Assembly (NCBI RefSeq): GCF_016432865.1
Contig: NC_067399.1
Location: 436,604,001 to 436,668,000 of the forward strand
Reading direction: 5' to 3'
DNA from: Antechinus flavipes
Taxonomy: Eukaryota
DNA: 64,000 nucleotides
Notes under the pieces: generated by a model
Told to the model about the DNA's origin: nothing
What the model saw: only the letters and a program-made list of their open reading frames with translations
Database searches by the model: none
Program-made: the position numbers and the translations under genes
Part shown: in pieces, positions 31,500 to 39,989 of the stretch
Numbering within the stretch: position 1 is the first letter of the stretch
How the letters are laid out: the number at the start of each line of letters is the position of its first letter

Positions 31500-31721
31500 G
31501 AAGCCAGGAGTAGTATAGAGTCAAGTCAGTGAGGCCTGAATTTGAATCCAGCCTCAGACACTTACCAGCTATGTAGCTTGGGGTAAAATCACTTCACCTC
31601 TGTTTGCTCAATGTCTTCATCTATAAAATGCAGGATAATAATTGCACATAACTCCCTGTTTTTAGGATAAAATGAGATAATACTTGTATTTAGCATACAG
31701 GAACTCTGGCACATAGGAAGT
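31500..31721 (+). mobile_element. MIR-type SINE that was the provirus integration target (resumes at ~35401-35430)
   Basis: CORE and MIR tail up to GGCACATAGGAAGT; tail continues CCTATATAAAAACTAGCTATT after the provirus. Confidence 0.7.
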
Positions 31722-32247
31722 TGCAGTGTTCTCTTCTTTTTTATAATATAATGGTTCTCTCTGGGAGCAGGTTTCTTGGAGAGGTTTTCTGGAGGCAGCC
31801 TTAGTTTCAGTTCCAAGTAATAATCACTTCAAACACAGCCAGGAGTTAAAATCCAGTCCTTTATTGTGTCCTTCAAAGTCTTGAGCTTCAGCCCCTAGCT
31901 CTCTCCGAATGTCTCCAGCCAGCACAAAGGTGGAATATGGAACGAATCTGTTTCTGCCTCTGAGAATGGGCTTCTGTTCCTGGCCTTGAGAGCTTCTTGC
32001 TTATATGTTGTACACTGAGTATACACCAATCATTATATCACTGGGAAACCATTATTTGTTGTAGGATTAAATCAATTCTAAACTAGATTTAACCACTGTC
32101 TCCTCAATTCCACTTAGAACCTTGTTTCAAGTTCAGGCCCATAACATCTCCTTGTAGGATCAGATCAATCATACTGAACCAGACTAATTTAGATAATTTT
32201 TGTCTCTATCAATTCTAATGACTTAACACTTTGTAAGGATTCCAACA
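31722..32247 (-). mobile_element. Provirus 3' LTR (526 bp)
   Basis: Provirus-sense TGTTGG...TGCA; TATAA 32001-32005, AATAAA 31860-31865. Confidence 0.93.
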
Positions 32248-32263
32248 TCTCCCACTTACTTTT
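32248..32263 (-). other. Polypurine tract
   Basis: Minus-strand AAAAGTAAGTGGGAGA abutting the TG of the 3' LTR. Confidence 0.85.
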
Positions 32264-32904
32264 GATTTAGAACATAAGGTGGTCATGACCTCCCTGACTT
32301 CTCAAGGAGGTGAGAACCCCAAAAAGAAGGTGATCAGGTCTTCCCTGATTGCTCAAAAAAGAAGTGAAAGCACCATAAAAAGAAGGTGGTTATGTCCTCC
32401 CTGACATCTCAGAAAGGGAGATGAAAACATGAAAGGAAATGGGAAATCAAATCAGATTAGCGGGTTTCTGAAGGGGTTCATTTGAAACAGGTATACATAA
32501 ATCCATCAACATAGGAGGCATTACACATAATTACATAAGCACATAGCAATATAACACAAGCTAGTAGTGATGTAACAAATAACATGAATCAACATACAGA
32601 ATTATACATGTCCATAAGTCCTAGAAATAGTCCAAAAGGAATCCATTGTCCATTAGTTCATGTGGCAGGAATCCAATAATTCCTGTAAGCTTTGAAGTAC
32701 TGCAATAGTCTCATCAACAATTTTTCATCTCAAGGAATCCAATGATTCCAGATGGTTTTTGTTCATCTTATGTTAGGGAATCCAATGATTCCTGAAGATT
32801 TTAAAATTCTTTTAACAGTCTCATTGTCAGCCATGCTCTTTCAGTGTCAAATGTATCTTAAATCTTCTCCTTTGTTTTGAGGTTTTTCTCTCTTTCTGTC
32901 TCTC

Positions 32905-33050
32905 TCCAGGTGCTGGTTGCCACCCATTCTGTTTCCTTCTCCATCTGTTTCCTTCTCTGTCGGTAAAAATACAAGCAAACCCTCTCTCCCAGGTAGTTAA
33001 CCTATCTAATTCCCTTCTATTTACCACTTTTGGGATTTCTCCTCATCATC
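32905..33050 (-). pseudogene. Remnant of integrase C-terminus
   Basis: QMMRRNPKSGK*KG..(frameshift)..DRLTTWERGFACIF...GEGNRWVA, matching the betaretroviral IN C-terminal W.DP....W.GP..L.TWGRGFAC pattern. Confidence 0.8.
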
Positions 33051-33096
33051 TGGCAATTACATTGGAGTTGTTTGTACTGGACACTGACCTGTTGGG

Positions 33097-34676
33097 TTAA
33101 AAAAGCCTGTATTTTCCCCAACTGTAACCTCTTTCTGCCATGTAATTACTTTTAAGCTTATTGATCACATAAGAGTCCTGACCTTCTAAAGACTCTCTGG
33201 GTATAATCTCAGCTGCCATCATGCCCCACCTGTCTTTTGATTGATATCTTGGGGCTGGGTTCCGCTTCTCATTTCCCTGGGTCAATTTGTATTCAGAGGC
33301 CCAGTGAAAACCTCAGTTGCATTTTGGACACGGGATTTTGGGTTTTCTCTCACCCTGTCTTCTCATTCTATCTCCATATCTACAATGAGCTCTAAGATGT
33401 CCAACTTTTCCACACTGAAAACATCAACGAGTTTTTCTAGAAATCCCTTGCCAAGAGGGATCCTGTCTTCCCATGGTCATCATAGTTTGGGCATAATTTG
33501 TGCCCACTGTGGCACAGTGCCTTATGACCTCCTCTAAAGGAGTATCTTTGTCTAGTCCCCATATAATTCTTTTGCAAATCTCATTGGCATTTTCCTTAGC
33601 CAGATCTCTGGTCATTATTTCTGTAGCTGCATTATCTCCAATGGTTCTTATTACAGCTGTTTGCAAATGCCCCACAAAATCTGCAAAAGGTTCATTAGGA
33701 CCTTGCTCTATTTTTGTGAAGGCTTCCCCTTGATCTTTTTGTCCTGGGAAGGAACCCCAAGCTTTTATTGCAGCATTAGAAATTTGCTCATACACTGGTA
33801 TGGAATAATAAATCTGTTCTGAATTCTCTCCATACTGACCACCAGCTAGTTGGTCAAAAACTATTTGTACATTAGCTCCTGTTTGCCTATTGCATTGGGC
33901 TTGAATCCTATATAATTCATGAAACTGCAAAAGCCACAACAAATTTTGTCCAGGTTCTAAACATGTCCTAGCTATGGATTTCCAATCACTCAGGGTTAAG
34001 ATTTCATAAGACAAGTTATCTAGTAACATCTTAACATAAGATGATGTAGCCCCATAAAGAGTGCAATTCTTTTTCAAATCCTTATTTTTTTCCAATTTAA
34101 AAGGCATGTATCTTCTCCCTTTTTGACCTGAAGAGTCAAGCTCTTCAATCACAGGATATGCATTTATAAAATCAGATACATCTCGCCCTTAATTTTTTGC
34201 CTTAATGAATGCCTTTTCTAATCTTGTCATATTCTGCTTCACAGGAGATGCTGATTGTGTTTCTGCCTCTCCCCCTCCTCCTTCTCTAGGGTCATGAGAT
34301 GTGAAATGATCTAATTTCTCCTGCTGTGAAGTATCACACTCAAAATTGTACTTAACTCCATTATTATCTGATTCTTCCTCCTTTTCATCTAGTTCAGTTG
34401 ACAAAGTTGACAAAGATCTCCTACTGATTTCCACTCTGTTGAATTTGGATTAGAATTGTAGTATTCACCTAGTTACTCTCCTACTAATTTCCACTCATTT
34501 GGATCCAATTCTTTTTCTGTAGAGAACCAAGGAGATGTGAATTTTATAGTTTCTAAAAGTTCAGTGATCTGCTGCAAAATTATAACCAAACCTTGGCTTT
34601 CCATAACTTTGACAACGCTCTCTAAACATTTTTCTTGAACAGAAACAGAAGGCTGTTTTCTAAACATCTGTCCCAT
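33097..34676 (-). pseudogene. gag: Disrupted betaretrovirus-like gag (MA, spacer, CA, NC with two zinc knuckles)
   Basis: MGQ start with PWF..W..VG matrix motif; capsid MHR IEQGPNEPFADFVGHL; CFQCGKVGHLRAHC and CPKCN*GFHWASEY; stops at 34473, 34189, 33424, 33313 and a frameshift near 34400-34436. Confidence 0.92.
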
Positions 34677-34724
34677 CTTAGTTGAAATTCTACTTTAACT
34701 CTTTTAACAAAATTTCTTTGTTTT

Positions 34725-34732
34725 ACTCACCC
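34725..34732 (-). promoter_or_regulatory. Proviral leader major splice donor
   Basis: Minus-strand GG|GTGAGT between the PBS and the gag ATG. Confidence 0.6.
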
Positions 34733-34807
34733 TAATTTCTGGGTTGAGGAGACTTTTCCTCTGGAGTCAAGATCAGAGGTTTTCCCACTGAAATCAGTAT
34801 CCTGTCA

Positions 34808-34826
34808 GTCTCACGTTTGGATGCCA
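34808..34826 (-). other. Degenerate primer-binding site, tRNA-Lys(1,2)-like
   Basis: TGGCATCCAAACGTGAGAC, 3 nt after the LTR CA; aligns with TGGCGCCCAACGTGGGGC with 4 substitutions and one insertion. Confidence 0.75.
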
Positions 34827-34829
34827 AAA

Positions 34830-35400
34830 TGTGGTGTTCTCTTCTTTTGTAAAATATGATGGTTCTCTGGGAGCAGGTTTCTTGGGAGGTTTTCTGGAGG
34901 CAGCCTTAGTTTCAGTTCCAAATAATAATCACTTTACAGCCAGGAGTTAAAATCCAGTCTTTTATTGTGTCCTTCAGTCTTGAGCTTCAGCCCCTAACTC
35001 CTCCGAATGTCTCCAGCCAGGACAAAAGTGGAATATGGAATGAATCTGTCTCCGCCTCTGAGAGTGGGCTTCTGTCCCTGGCCCTGAGAGCTTCTTGCTT
35101 ATATGCTGTACACTGAGTACACACCAATCATTATATCACTTGGGAAACCATTATTTAACTAGATTTAAACATAGTTTCCTCAGCTCCACTTAGTACCTTG
35201 TTTCAAGTTCTGGCCCATAACATTTTCTTGTAGGATCAGATCAATCAGCTTAAATGTAATTACATGGCAGAAAGAGATTACAGTTGGGGAGAATACAGGC
35301 TTTTTAACCCAGCAGATCGATTTAGCCTGAACCTGGCTAAATTAGATAATTATTGTCTCTATCAATTCTAATGACTTAATACTTTGTAAGGATTCCAATA
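34830..35400 (-). mobile_element. Provirus 5' LTR (571 bp; 77-bp insertion and ~23-bp deletion relative to the 3' LTR)
   Basis: Colinear with 31722-32247; TATAA 35099-35103; terminal TG mutated to TA. Confidence 0.93.
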
Positions 35401-35677
35401 GGAAGTCCTATATAAAAACTAGCTATTATAATTTTAGTAATATTAGATTTGCAAGTATGTGGAGGATGCATTAGAGAGAGGAGAGACTAGAAGCATGAGT
35501 CCAATTAAAAGATAATTCCAATAGCAGATGCTAAAAATGACAAAGGTCTGAACCAGGGAAGTAGCTGTGAAAGTAGAAAAAGGAAATAGATTTTGAGAGA
35601 TTTGGGAGCTATATTAAATAAGATTTGGCAACTTATTAGATATAAGTAGTAAGGATGAGATTAAAGAGTAAAGGATG

Positions 35678-35905: not shown

Positions 35906-36611
35906 AAAGAGTAAAGGATGGAAAATTTGTATGAATTAATATAGAGTAAAGTGAGCAGAAAAAAGGAGACCAATTTATCCCATAACAGGATATTATACAG
36001 ACAAAAAGCTTTGAAAGATGTAGTAACTCTGTTCAACACAATGAAATTCCAAAGGATTCAAGATGAAACATGATACCAGTCTCCTGACAGAGAACTAATG
36101 GATTCAGAGTACAGACTGAAACTTGTTTTTAGCATGGTCAATGTGAGGAATTTATTTTGCTTGATTATGTCTGCTTGTAACAAAAGTTTTGTTTTTCTTA
36201 CTTTTTCAATCTGGGAAGGGAGATAGGAAGAAAATGAAGATCTGAAAATAAAATAAATTTATTTAAAGAAGGATTTTGAAATTGAAGACTCACGTTTTTT
36301 GGAGAATAGTGATACTTCAAAAGAGACAGGGGAAATGGGAGCACACAAAGGGGTGGGAAGAAGGAAAGTGGGAAGGAGGGAAGAATAATTTGAAAAGAAA
36401 ACAAAATTTAATTAGATTTTTTAAAAAAGAATTATAAAAGGCAATTTCAAGATGGAAGATCTAGATGTCTGGGAAAATAGAGAGGCTGTCAATAGAAATA
36501 AGGAAACTGAGGAAACAGGTGGGATGGGGGAGGAAGAAAAATAGTTCTGCTTTGGACATGTTATTTTAGGATGCTTAAAGGACATATAATTCATAGCTGA
36601 TTGGCAGCTGG

Positions 36612-36760
36612 TGGTGGTGCCAGGCTCATGGAGTTCAGGAAAGGCTCGGGCCGAAAACAAGTCTATACGAGCACCGCATATAGTACTTATGCGTAGTTGC
36701 ACATAATACATGTGGATTCAGCTCGAGTCTTTCCTGAACTCCATGAGTCCGGCACCACCA
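36612..36760. repeat. Long inverted repeat (40-bp arms 36612-36651 / 36721-36760) with a central 18-bp near-palindrome
   Basis: 36 of 40 Watson-Crick pairs, including a perfect 19-bp core CTCATGGAGTTCAGGAAAG / CTTTCCTGAACTCCATGAG. Confidence 0.92.
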
Positions 36761-37079
36761 GCACCTAATTGCATGTCATCTCTGCACAGAGGTAACTGGT
36801 GAGCTCGGAGAGCTGATGAGTTTACCAAGAGGCAGTGTAGAGAAATGCAGAACAGTATCGTGTCTATGACAGGTGAGTCATCAGTACTGGCCGAATGAAT
36901 GAACGGTCTCCCCTTTCGGGGGAGCAAACAAGACAGCTTGATTCTGGTGTCTATCTATTCCCACACTTGGCTGGATGACGTTGAGAGGATCGCTTAGCCT
37001 CTCTGTGCTTCGAACGCTATAGGATCGAAGCCCACTACCAAGGAGCGTCTAGAACACCTGAGAGCAGAGGTCTATAGCA

Positions 37080-37830
37080 GCCTCGCCAGTTCGGTGCAGC
37101 CACACCTCCGCTGCCCTCCCGGCAGCCCTGGCTCCGTAGCCCCACCCCCGCTCAGGATTGGCTGCGCCTGGCTTCGCTTCTCGCTCAGTGATTGGTCGTG
37201 GTGACCGTCGGTCTGGCGAGCTGGGCCCCGGCGGCGGCTGCTGAAGACGGAGCCATGAGCGGAAGGGCCTGAGCTCCGTTCCCAGCTTCAAGCTTGTACC
37301 CACTGCGGCGGTGGCGGCGGCGGCCCGGGAGCTGGGGCTGAGCCCTGAGCGCCGCCCGCCCGCCAGCCCGGACAGCCGCAGGGAGGACAGGTGAGGTGGC
37401 GGGGAGTAGCTTGGCCGGGGCACGAGAGCAGGCGGAGAGCCGGGGACCGCGGCTGGAGGGGTGGGGGATGAGGCGGAGGGTTCTTCTGTAAGAGGGGGAG
37501 GGGATGAAGCAGGGCATGAGCTAGCGGCTGGGCCCGGGGGGCTACGCCGGCCGGGGCAGCACCAGGGCGGCTGCGGGCCTCGGGAGGCCGGCTGCTCCTG
37601 GCACCGTGCCCCGCTCCTCCTCCCCGCCCGGAGAGTGCCGCATTCTGTCTGTCAGAGGCGCCGGAGGGACCCATGCTTGTGCCAGCGCCGCGGAGCCGGG
37701 CCAGGGCCGGGTCCGGGGCGCAGCATCGCGAGGCGGGTCCCCAGAACCGCCCCTCCCGTTCCGTCTGCCTGTGTGACCTTGGGCCAGCCCCTGCCGGCCC
37801 CTCGCTTAGCTTCTGTATGATGAGGGGGTT
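37080..37830 (+). promoter_or_regulatory. MAPK9: MAPK9 CpG-island promoter
   Basis: Only strongly GC/CpG-rich block in the window; inverted CCAAT boxes (ATTGG) at 37157-37161 and 37191-37195, 34 bp apart; CACCC/GC boxes; (GCG)n runs. Confidence 0.9.
37200..37390 (+). other. MAPK9: MAPK9 non-coding exon 1 (5' end approximate)
   Basis: Strong donor CAG|GTGAGG at 37390/37391 inside the CpG island; the next acceptor leads to the ATG exon. Confidence 0.75.
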
Positions 37831-39989
37831 TGCCCTCGAAGATCCCAGGGCCCCTGTAGCACCAGATCTTGGCAACCCAGCCCCCTCAGGACTCCCCTGC
37901 TGGGGCGGCTGGACATCCAGGTACTTTTATGTCCCACCCTGGTGCCTCCCTTCCCAGCTGTCACTCGTGGGCTCTCTCCTTCCCTCCCCCTCCCCATCTG
38001 GAGCCTCTTTGGGGACTGATGCCTCCCACTCCAGACTCTTGTACTTCATCTTGGAAAAAACAAGCCCTTGTGCTTTTCATCCCTTACTCATACTCGTTCT
38101 TTGAAAAGGTGAAATGAGAAAAACATTGTTATTACCTGAATTAAAATCACCTAGATTTAAGTCTCTTTTCCCAAATTCTTCAATTTTTGAAACATGGCAT
38201 AAAAATTTCAGATTCCGTTATTATTGGTGATAATTCTCATTATCGTATAGCTGTGTGAAGTGCTTTCCTCGCAACAACCTTGGGAAATACGTAGTGTAGA
38301 TATTATTATTCTCAATTTATAGAGTAGGGAACTTTGAGATTTTAAATGAAATGGCCTAAGTCACACACTTTAGTAGGAAGCAGAGTGGAGAATCAAATTT
38401 TGATCAAACCATATTGACATCTCCTAGCTTCAGTTTTCTCAGAAAAACTGCTGAACAGGACTTGGAGATATCTGAAATGAGAGAGTGACACTTTGTAGAG
38501 TGTCTTAAGAGAGGCCTTAGGCAAAGTTGTGCCTTCCTAGATTTTGAGCATCTTGAATTAGGTATGTTGCCAGTCTCTTCTTAGGGAACCTGGCAGACCA
38601 TTTTAGTGAATGAGGCAAAAAATGTCTTCCATGAAGAATCTTGTTTGTTAATTATAGGCAGAGACTTTTGGGATTGTTTAAGAAGAGAAATGGTTTAGCC
38701 CTTTTTAAAAATATCTTATTTGAGGCCATCTTTTTTATGGATTTGTTAGTAACTTGTAAGTTTTTCCCCCTTGTTCTGGCTCTTTGAGGCTCTTCAGCAC
38801 AGTGAAATTCATTTTAATTTGTTGCTATTTTTTAGATCTTGATACATTTCCTTTTGTTGGTAAATTTCCAGAACCAGCAGTAAGATGAATGTTAGCATTG
38901 ACAATCTTTTAGCTGTAATTTACTACAGTGCAAAAAGGGCATTTAATCCTGATTCAGTCAGAGTTCTTTCTTTTTTTTTCTATGCAGTCTCTCTCCACCC
39001 CCCTCCTTTTCAGAGGGCTCATTATAAGTTTAAAATCCCATTTTTAGCATTGTCTTCCCTAAGGAAATCATGATTCTCTTGTTCTCAAACTGTTGCTAAT
39101 TTAAAAAAAAAAAAGTTGTCAGACATGTAAATATGAGATACATTTAATCTTTGAAAAATTCATATATTTGTCTCAATAGTAACTCAAATCATATTTCTTC
39201 CATTTCATAGCATCAGAAATTCATTGTCCCAGATGTTAAATATGGAGCATTTATCAATTCTACAAAAGTTTCCAAAGCTAAGAACAATTCAGATTTAAAT
39301 TCCAACTTTTTTTCCCCTTTATAACAATTGCTGATCTAACAGTTGTGAAGCCTGTTTTTCTAAGCATATGGGGACTAAGATGATATATATATATATCATA
39401 AGTGAATGGTAATAGTACATAGATACAGGTTCTTCTGTGTTTTCACCTGTACTAAGAATATTTTTTAAAATGTCTAAATTCTTGTGAAATTTTCCCATGT
39501 TTTAAGGTGGGGATGGAGGAGGAAATCATGCAGATATTTTCCCCCAGAGTTTTCTATTACTAATTGAGTTTGAAAAGTCAAATCCCATGCGATTGAATTA
39601 TTTTTGAAAATATCAATTTTCTTAACACTTAAAAAAATTAAATATTGAACATTAAAGTAACATTTGATGTACATTTGACTTTATTTTAAATATTTCTTTA
39701 GCAATCCAGATTTTTTCACATATTTTTAAAAATTATTTATATCTGACATATTTTATTTTGATAGGATGAATTACTCAAAACTCTATCTACCTCCATAGTT
39801 CCCTATAAAAAGTTAAGCAACACTTCCTAAGATAGTCATCGCAATTGGCAGTATGTATCATTTTCCATTTTTGTGTTTTGTGTAACAAAAATTAAGGTTG
39901 TATGCTTTGACTTTAATAATATAAAATCAACATTATCTAGTGTATTTAACTTTAATTTTGCCACGACTTAAGATAAAAGTATTATCTTT

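What the first reader, a model, noticed from the sequence alone, without database searches (positions are those of the whole stretch)
35239..35323. The 5' LTR carries an inverted copy of the provirus's own gag 3' end
Seen: 35239-35318 is the reverse complement of internal 33086-33166 (6 substitutions and 1 indel in 81 nt). It forms a 77-bp insertion (35247-35323) in U3 of the 5' LTR that is absent from the 3' LTR. Both junctions show microhomology to the LTR motif CAGATCAATC, and the source lies at the gag/IN deletion junction. Its divergence from the source is similar to the LTR-LTR divergence, so it arose near the time of integration. Known: the two LTRs are normally identical at integration, and 5' U3 is the last part of minus-strand DNA made. 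Inference: a double template switch of the nascent minus strand onto itself would give exactly this one-sided inverted insert; post-integration microhomology-mediated repair is the alternative.
Basis: partly seen in the sequence, partly recalled or inferred. Interest (0 to 1): 0.7.

Follow-up and report, generated by a model that had tools for sequence, protein, structure and literature searches.

The report
DNA-repair scar in an old provirus
One end of an old, broken virus copy in a mammal's genome holds a short backwards copy of its own gag gene plus a tiny backwards copy of the bases next door, likely a scar left when the host patched a DNA break, and so probably an ordinary one-off mutation.

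Summary
35239-35318 is the reverse complement of 33086-33166 (74/80 plus 1 indel), in U3 of the 5' LTR of a class II-like, gag-only ERV (31722-35400, 6-bp TSD). In detail, 79 nt (35248-35326) replace 2 LTR bases. None of 49 other LTRs has the insert, and both junctions are unique in the genome. Both sides of the lesion therefore show fold-back copying, which fits snap-back or microhomology-mediated template switching in host break repair (about 0.68). The gag/IN deletion next to the donor is a family trait (29 of 29 copies), so it is no clue. Dating cannot separate 'at integration' from 'early afterwards'. Independent read support was not obtained. Verdict: a real complex templated insertion of a known kind, with no sign of function.

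The parts
31716..31721 (.). left target-site duplication (6 bp)
   Evidence: identical to 35401-35406
31722..32247 (-). 3' LTR, without the insert
   Evidence: 92-94% to the nearest other LTRs
32930..33050 (-). broken integrase C-terminal remnant (approximate limits)
   Evidence: no Pfam hit for the window's own piece; IN_DBD_C in 4 of 8 equivalent pieces of other copies, 3 above the curated cut-off
33086..33166 (+). donor segment near the 3' end of gag; 33158-33166 is the primer-pairing site
   Evidence: only copy with both rare states that the insert carries
33316..34676 (-). broken gag (matrix, capsid, zinc knuckles)
   Evidence: Gag_p10 7e-06, Gag_p24 5e-28, Gag_p24_C 1e-17, zf-CCHC weak at 0.018; best named PDB hits HERV-K Gag, E 2e-22
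34830..35400 (-). 5' LTR carrying the insert in U3
   Evidence: U3 placed from the PPT-like, TATA-like and AATAAA-like positions (motifs recalled)
35239..35247 (+). left microhomology: LTR end that also matches the inverted donor
35248..35318 (+). inverted copy of 33086-33157; its last 6 nt also equal the LTR motif at 35237-35242
35320..35326 (+).
   Evidence: chance 1e-4 in register, 0.017 anywhere within 50 nt of the junction
35327..35342 (+). resumed LTR: native 3-bp stem with 3-nt loop (one stem base, 35334, now differs from the 3' LTR and from 28 of 29 other LTRs) and the fold-back template
   Evidence: the extended hairpin folds at -5.6 kcal/mol with DNA parameters
35401..35406 (.). right target-site duplication

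Best explanation
This is a complex templated insertion of 79 nt, made of two inverted copies of the element's own DNA, likely formed in the host germ line when a break in the 5' LTR of the already integrated provirus was repaired by fold-back synthesis at both ends. Shown: the two inverted pieces, their templates, the 9-nt left overlap, the 3-bp stem at the right end and the 2-nt loss. Inferred: the left 3' end (window + strand) paired through 9 nt with the same strand 2.07 kb back (or with the sister chromatid) and copied about 71 nt. The right 3' end (window - strand) folded on a 3-bp stem with a 3-nt loop and copied 7 nt. The two extended ends then joined through 1-3 nt, possibly after re-copying 6-9 nt of LTR. 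The enzyme (Pol theta-type end joining versus an MMBIR-like or fork template switch) cannot be told from sequence. The insert lies in 5' U3, which progeny RNA does not carry, so it would be a dead end.
For: The 7 nt left unexplained by donor and LTR equal the reverse complement of 35336-35342 in exact register with a native stem at the right-hand end: P about 1e-4 in register, 0.017 anywhere within 50 nt. Primer repeats of 3-4 nt spaced under 10 bp and close to the break gave the most-read junctions in a fly SD-MMEJ assay, and snap-back leaves inverted repeats (PMC5728401, passages). Fold-back inversions of 2-150 bp at breaks are described in yeast (10.1101/2024.03.07.583931, passages). Multi-template events with inverted pieces occur as human germline variants, 33 of 103 and 26 of 99 events (PMC8421209, section 10 part 1). 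Only 2 LTR bases are lost. The donor is likely local: both rare states shared by insert and donor occur together in 1 of 41 matching copies, the window's own, and no other place lies within 2 mismatches of the 64-nt core. Private changes in these LTRs nearly all post-date integration (13 + 13 one-sided against 1 shared in 485 sites), so a rare state shared by insert and donor leans slightly to a later event. This LTR has another private indel, a 23-nt loss (29 of 29 other LTRs keep it).
Against: The left template is 2.07 kb away, outside the 30-bp limit used to call SD-MMEJ (PMC9303309, passages), so long resection or a replication-type switch must be assumed. Dating does not exclude integration time: likelihood ratio 0.63 on the core and 1.75 with junction-near sites, under assumed parallel-change rates of 0.15 and 0.05. 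Three informative donor-private states are absent from the insert, so the event is early (upper 95% about 0.6 of the element's age). Of the two shared rare states, 33155 recurs in 4 of 40 other copies (counted by eye) and 33087 could come from the LTR motif. By raw distance the insert is no closer to its own donor (6/80) than to the best other copies (5/80 in 1 and 6 differences in 8 of 32). Both templates are minus-strand DNA in the order that reverse transcriptase would meet them.
Confidence: 0.68

Rival explanations
1. Reverse-transcription error. While finishing 5' U3, the nascent minus strand switched to its own still single-stranded gag region, then to the 3' U3 part of the same strand just ahead of the displacement point, then back to plus-strand strong-stop DNA. 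The one-strand loop was fixed after integration.
For: The window + strand is the minus-strand DNA, both templates lie on it, and the insert is in the part made last. RT switches templates often and gives deletions with insertions (PMC3187697, passages). Asymmetric LTRs blamed on reverse transcription were seen in 26 of 88 HIV-1 proviruses (PMC9278108, passages). Insert-donor divergence (7.5%) resembles LTR-LTR divergence (6.6%), and dating allows integration time.
Against: It needs three switches, the last two on 1-3 nt, with a template opened about 17 nt beyond the stall point, plus survival of a 79-nt heteroduplex loop (inference). The HIV asymmetries in the passages read were deletions, 24 of 26 in the 3' LTR. 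Non-homologous switches are at least 1000-fold rarer than homologous ones. The gag/IN junction gives no support because it is a family trait.
Confidence: 0.22
2. Host repair acting on the viral DNA just before or during integration (nuclear cDNA or the gapped integration intermediate): the same fold-back chemistry, dated to integration.
For: It joins the repair-type junctions with an early date.
Against: The site is 73 nt inside the LTR end, the TSD is intact, and the time window is very short compared with the element's age (inference).
Confidence: 0.05
3. Assembly or polishing artefact, or a recent copy from another family member.
For: Only one assembly shows the junctions.
Against: The insert lacks four states private to the present donor and has three of its own, two of them absent from 32 of 32 other copies. 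No place in the genome is within 2 mismatches of the core. An in-register 7-nt hairpin is not expected from a chimera (inference).
Confidence: 0.04
4. The insert is a normal part of an LTR subfamily and the 3' LTR lost it or was swapped.
For: None found.
Against: 0 of 49 distinct other LTRs have more than 5 extra bases at the site (50 loci, one fetched twice). The left-junction pattern matches exactly once; the other 99 listed matches (of 122, 22 not listed) have 2 mismatches and lack the insert start. The right-junction pattern hits 3 other places, none an LTR.
Confidence: 0.01

Closest known systems
Snap-back SD-MMEJ / polymerase theta-type templated insertions (PMC5728401, PMC9303309; passages read)
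   Same: Tiny deletion, a 3-nt inverted primer repeat with a short loop at the break end, insert becoming part of a longer inverted repeat.
   Different: The main piece is about 71 nt and comes from 2.07 kb away, outside the 30-bp calling limit; both ends appear extended; Pol theta dependence untestable.
Complex MMBIR-like templated insertions, MMB-TI (PMC8421209; passages and section 10 part 1 read)
   Same: Inverted template on the same chromosome, junction microhomology or microhomeology, several templates in one event, no larger rearrangement.
   Different: Old event in a non-human genome, inside an ERV; template distance in kilobases.
Local fold-back inversions at yeast breaks (10.1101/2024.03.07.583931; passages read)
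   Same: Left side: about 10 nt of inverted microhomology at the end primes copying, and the product is captured with 0-5 nt overlap.
   Different: Loop of 2 kb instead of 41 nt; second fold-back on the other end.
Reverse-transcriptase rearrangements: deletions with insertions, asymmetric LTRs (PMC3187697, PMC9278108; passages read; the primary papers of 1990 and 1995 were not held)
   Same: One-LTR asymmetry; donor within the same genome.
   Different: Those read about are deletions, mainly in the 3' LTR; here an inverted two-piece insert in 5' U3.
Class II (betaretrovirus-like) marsupial ERVs, e.g. MEBrv 1-5 (PMC11334065; passages read)
   Same: Betaretrovirus-like capsid, 6-bp TSD, high copy number.
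   Different: This copy belongs to an abundant 3.7-kb form without pro, RT or env; clade not assigned.

Membership tests
Snap-back SD-MMEJ insertion | Short inverted primer repeat at the break end, loop under 10 nt | tested here: met
   Right end: 3-bp stem, 3-nt loop, intact in the 3' LTR
Snap-back SD-MMEJ insertion | Insert extends the primer into a longer inverted repeat | tested here: met
   35320-35329 against 35333-35342, 9 of 10
Snap-back SD-MMEJ insertion | Primer repeats within 30 bp of the break | tested here: not met
   Met for the right end; the left template is 2.07 kb away, so the whole event is not filed as plain SD-MMEJ
Snap-back SD-MMEJ insertion | Microhomology at the final join | tested here: inconclusive
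   1-3 nt depending on how 35313-35321 is read, with one mismatch at 35319
Snap-back SD-MMEJ insertion | Dependence on polymerase theta | not testable with these tools
   Historical event
Complex MMBIR-like templated insertion | Insert inverted relative to a template on the same molecule | tested here: met
Complex MMBIR-like templated insertion | Microhomology at template-switch junctions | tested here: met
   9-nt left overlap (8 of 9 to the present donor; 29 of 32 other copies have the matching state at the ninth site); 3 nt at the return to the LTR
Complex MMBIR-like templated insertion | Two or more templates in one event | tested here: met
   gag piece plus LTR fold-back piece
Complex MMBIR-like templated insertion | Arose in chromosomal DNA (after integration) | tested here: inconclusive
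   Likelihood ratio 0.63-1.75
Reverse-transcription rearrangement | Present at integration | tested here: inconclusive
   junction state in relatives not obtained
Reverse-transcription rearrangement | Donor in the same or co-packaged genome, in the order of synthesis | tested here: met
   Both templates lie on the minus-strand DNA
Reverse-transcription rearrangement | Templates single-stranded at the time of the switch | not testable with these tools
   Plausible for gag, needs extra opening for 3' U3 (inference)
LTR subfamily variant | Insert present in other LTR copies | tested here: not met
   0 of 49 LTRs; junction patterns unique
Class II (betaretrovirus-like) ERV | Gag similar to betaretroviral matrix and capsid | tested here: met
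Class II (betaretrovirus-like) ERV | RT phylogeny places it in class II or in an MEBrv clade | not tested
   This copy has no RT; no full-length relative was sought

The most novel reading that the evidence does not exclude
A germ-line fossil of reverse transcriptase making three template switches on its own nascent minus strand while finishing 5' U3, leaving a two-piece inverted insert in one LTR at integration. It would show that LTR pairs can start out structurally unequal through inverted self-copying, and that RT can leave junctions that mimic polymerase theta scars.
Probability: 0.22. Interest if true: 0.45.

Novelty: new member of a known kind. Interest (0 to 1): 0.2.

Why it matters
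It matters little as a single event: it is unique, cannot be passed on through viral RNA, and shows no sign of function. It is a clean old example of a two-ended fold-back insertion with a kilobase-distant template. It also suggests a cheap test: because an ERV has a twin LTR as an internal control, a family-wide count of such inserts in 5' U3 against 3' U3 and internal sequence would separate reverse-transcription errors from host repair scars.

Tried and rejected
Read support. Only Logan contigs were offered. In 4 of 4 runs laid on 35275-35365 (X17, X18, X1, X2) depth at 35319-35322 was zero and no piece spanned the right junction; no listed piece spanned either junction. The tool states that a hole in contigs proves nothing. 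A short single-copy path joining two high-copy repeats may also be pruned by the assembler (my recollection). Contigs joining 35247 to 35327 exist but cannot be tied to this locus, since thousands of paralogous LTRs have that form. The test is inconclusive in both directions, and it does not confirm the insert. Dating by polarised changes was not decisive. Raw distance did not single out the donor. The idea that the donor marks this copy's own deletion breakpoint was rejected. A near-exact donor elsewhere was not found. Background survey: 96 other loci (some overlapping; 125 kb of family sequence) gave 2 inverted self-matches of 30 nt or more, both in L080 and both neighbouring LTR fragments, not inserts. 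The window's own integrase-remnant piece gave no Pfam hit. Earlier scan findings: nothing near, nothing by words. The primary RT papers of 1990 and 1995 were not held. No supplements were read.

Full report
Setting. The finding lies in a 3.7-kb endogenous retrovirus on the minus strand, 31722-35400, between two copies of a 6-bp target-site duplication. The host genome has 3.19 Gb with six very large contigs, which suggests a marsupial (inference from recalled karyotypes). The element keeps a broken gag: Gag_p10, Gag_p24, Gag_p24_C and a weak zinc knuckle, with HERV-K Gag among the best PDB hits. An integrase C-terminal remnant follows gag. The window's own piece gave no Pfam hit, but 4 of 8 equivalent pieces from other copies hit IN_DBD_C, 3 above the cut-off (8 of 16 candidates were scanned). 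The family is large: 4122 and 6949 first-look candidates for an internal and an LTR query, 40 scored each.

Observation. 35239-35318 aligns to the reverse complement of 33086-33166 with 74 matches, 6 mismatches and one gap; the LTRs differ at 32 of 487 sites. Compared with the 3' LTR and 29 of 29 nearest LTRs, 79 nt (35248-35326) stand in place of 2 LTR bases, a net gain of 77.

Uniqueness. None of 49 distinct other LTRs has more than 5 extra bases at the site (50 loci, one fetched twice). The left-junction pattern has one exact match, the window; the other 99 listed matches of 122 have 2 mismatches and lack the insert start, and 22 were not listed. The right-junction pattern has 3 other matches at 2 mismatches, none in an LTR. 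An LTR subfamily is excluded. Uniqueness does not tell the mechanism, because 5' U3 is not copied into progeny RNA (established retroviral biology; PMC3187697 passage).

Donor. By raw distance the insert is not closer to its own donor (6/80) than to the best of 32 other copies (5/80 in one, 6 differences in eight). The case for the local donor rests on shared rare states and on proximity. The states at 33155 and 33087 are each rare (2 and 1 of 32; 4 and 1 of 40, counted by eye) and occur together only in the window's donor. The 33087 state could instead come from the LTR motif. Leaving it out, none of the 40 other copies listed shares all three core markers with the insert (counted by eye). 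No other place lies within 2 mismatches of the 64-nt core; 7 lie at 3. The donor ends about 30 nt from the gag / integrase-remnant boundary, but 29 of 29 nearest internal copies run colinear across that boundary, so it belongs to the family and not to this event.

Junctions. On the left, the LTR's last 9 nt (35239-35247) match the inverted donor at 8 of 9 now, and 29 of 32 other copies have the matching state at the ninth site. 35313-35318 does equal the LTR motif at 35237-35242, and also matches the donor at 5 of 6, so a short re-copy of LTR is possible but unproven. The next 7 nt, 35320-35326, are an exact inverted copy of 35336-35342 and extend a native 3-bp stem with a 3-nt loop that starts exactly where the LTR resumes. 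The chance is about 1e-4 in register and 0.017 for any match in either orientation within 50 nt. One stem base (35334) now differs from the 3' LTR and from 28 of 29 other LTRs, which suggests that it changed later.

Mechanism. Both sides of a 2-nt loss carry inverted copies primed at their own ends. In a break-repair reading the left 3' end folds back 2.07 kb and copies about 71 nt, the right 3' end snaps back on the small stem and copies 7 nt, and the ends join on 1-3 nt. The right side matches snap-back SD-MMEJ as described in flies (PMC5728401, passages). The left side resembles fold-back inversions in yeast (10.1101/2024.03.07.583931, passages) and complex germline templated insertions in humans (PMC8421209, passages and section 10 part 1). 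It falls outside the 30-bp limit used for SD-MMEJ calls, though multi-step insertions are acknowledged there (PMC9303309, passages). A replication-fork switch would give the same product and is counted with host mechanisms (PMC5453318, search listing only). The RT model fits strand and order, since both templates lie on minus-strand DNA. It needs three switches, the last two on 1-3 nt, a template opened about 17 nt past the stall, and fixation of a one-strand loop (inference). RT does make deletions with insertions (PMC3187697, passages) and unequal LTRs (PMC9278108, passages: 26 of 88, deletions, 24 in the 3' LTR). I put host repair at 0.68, RT at 0.22, repair at integration at 0.05, artefact at 0.04 and subfamily at 0.01.

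Timing. Rare states are one-sided in the LTR pair: 13 in the 3' LTR, 13 in the 5' LTR, 1 shared and 6 ambiguous in 485 sites against 29 LTRs. In the donor, three informative private states are missing from the insert and one or two are shared (33159 was left out because it lies in the overlap). A simple likelihood with assumed parallel-change rates gives later:at-integration 0.63 on the core and 1.75 with junction-near sites, best estimate 0.17-0.24 of the element's age and upper 95% about 0.6. The event is old and early, and no finer statement is justified. Contigs of four organisms run from the last 24-30 nt of the 5' LTR through the TSD into the flank, with 0, 2, 3 and 17 other letters in 274-280 nt. 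That is just under the tool's 31-letter bar for a bridge, but it suggests that the provirus predates the split from organism A. Independent read support for the insert junctions was not obtained (see Tried and rejected), so the insert is known from this assembly alone.

Novelty. A search for endogenous retrovirus + LTR + templated insertion + inverted + double-strand break repair returned one unrelated paper, and a search on retroviral self-priming returned two, neither listing describing this structure. The library lacks most subscription papers and the classic RT papers, so this shows little. No earlier scan finding bears on it. The structure is a new member of a known kind, a complex templated insertion. 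Nothing points to function. Interest 0.2.

Noticed in passing
window 31722-35400 and L032-L060: The 3.7-kb gag-only form (gag followed directly by an integrase C-terminal remnant, no pro, RT or env) is an abundant family structure, shared by 29 of 29 nearest internal copies, so likely a non-autonomous lineage mobilised in trans.
   Followed up: partly
window 35156-35157: The 5' LTR also lacks 23 nt that the 3' LTR and 29 of 29 other LTRs keep, 90 nt left of the insert; no microhomology seen by eye. Relation to the insert unknown.
   Followed up: partly
window 37050-37950: GC- and CpG-rich island about 1.65 kb from the 5' LTR end, with a splice-donor-like site near 37391 on the + strand; probably a host gene's first exon. 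The provirus points away from it.
   Followed up: no
window 36606-36766: Inverted repeat with 61-nt arms, 80% complementary, 39-nt spacer, between the LTR and the CpG island; could be a small DNA-transposon remnant or a hairpin.
   Followed up: no
L035 and L037 (G000:C2:228769846 and 228771282): One family copy holds the gag-end region twice, about 1.44 kb apart on the same strand with equal differences in the donor region and its left flank: an internal tandem duplication.
   Followed up: no
L022 (G000:C1:252713141-252716217): A family copy with a further internal deletion (window equivalent about 33185-33658) just beside the donor region.
   Followed up: no
L080 (G000:C3:198818440-198821957): An LTR flanked on both sides by short LTR fragments in the opposite orientation.
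   Followed up: partly
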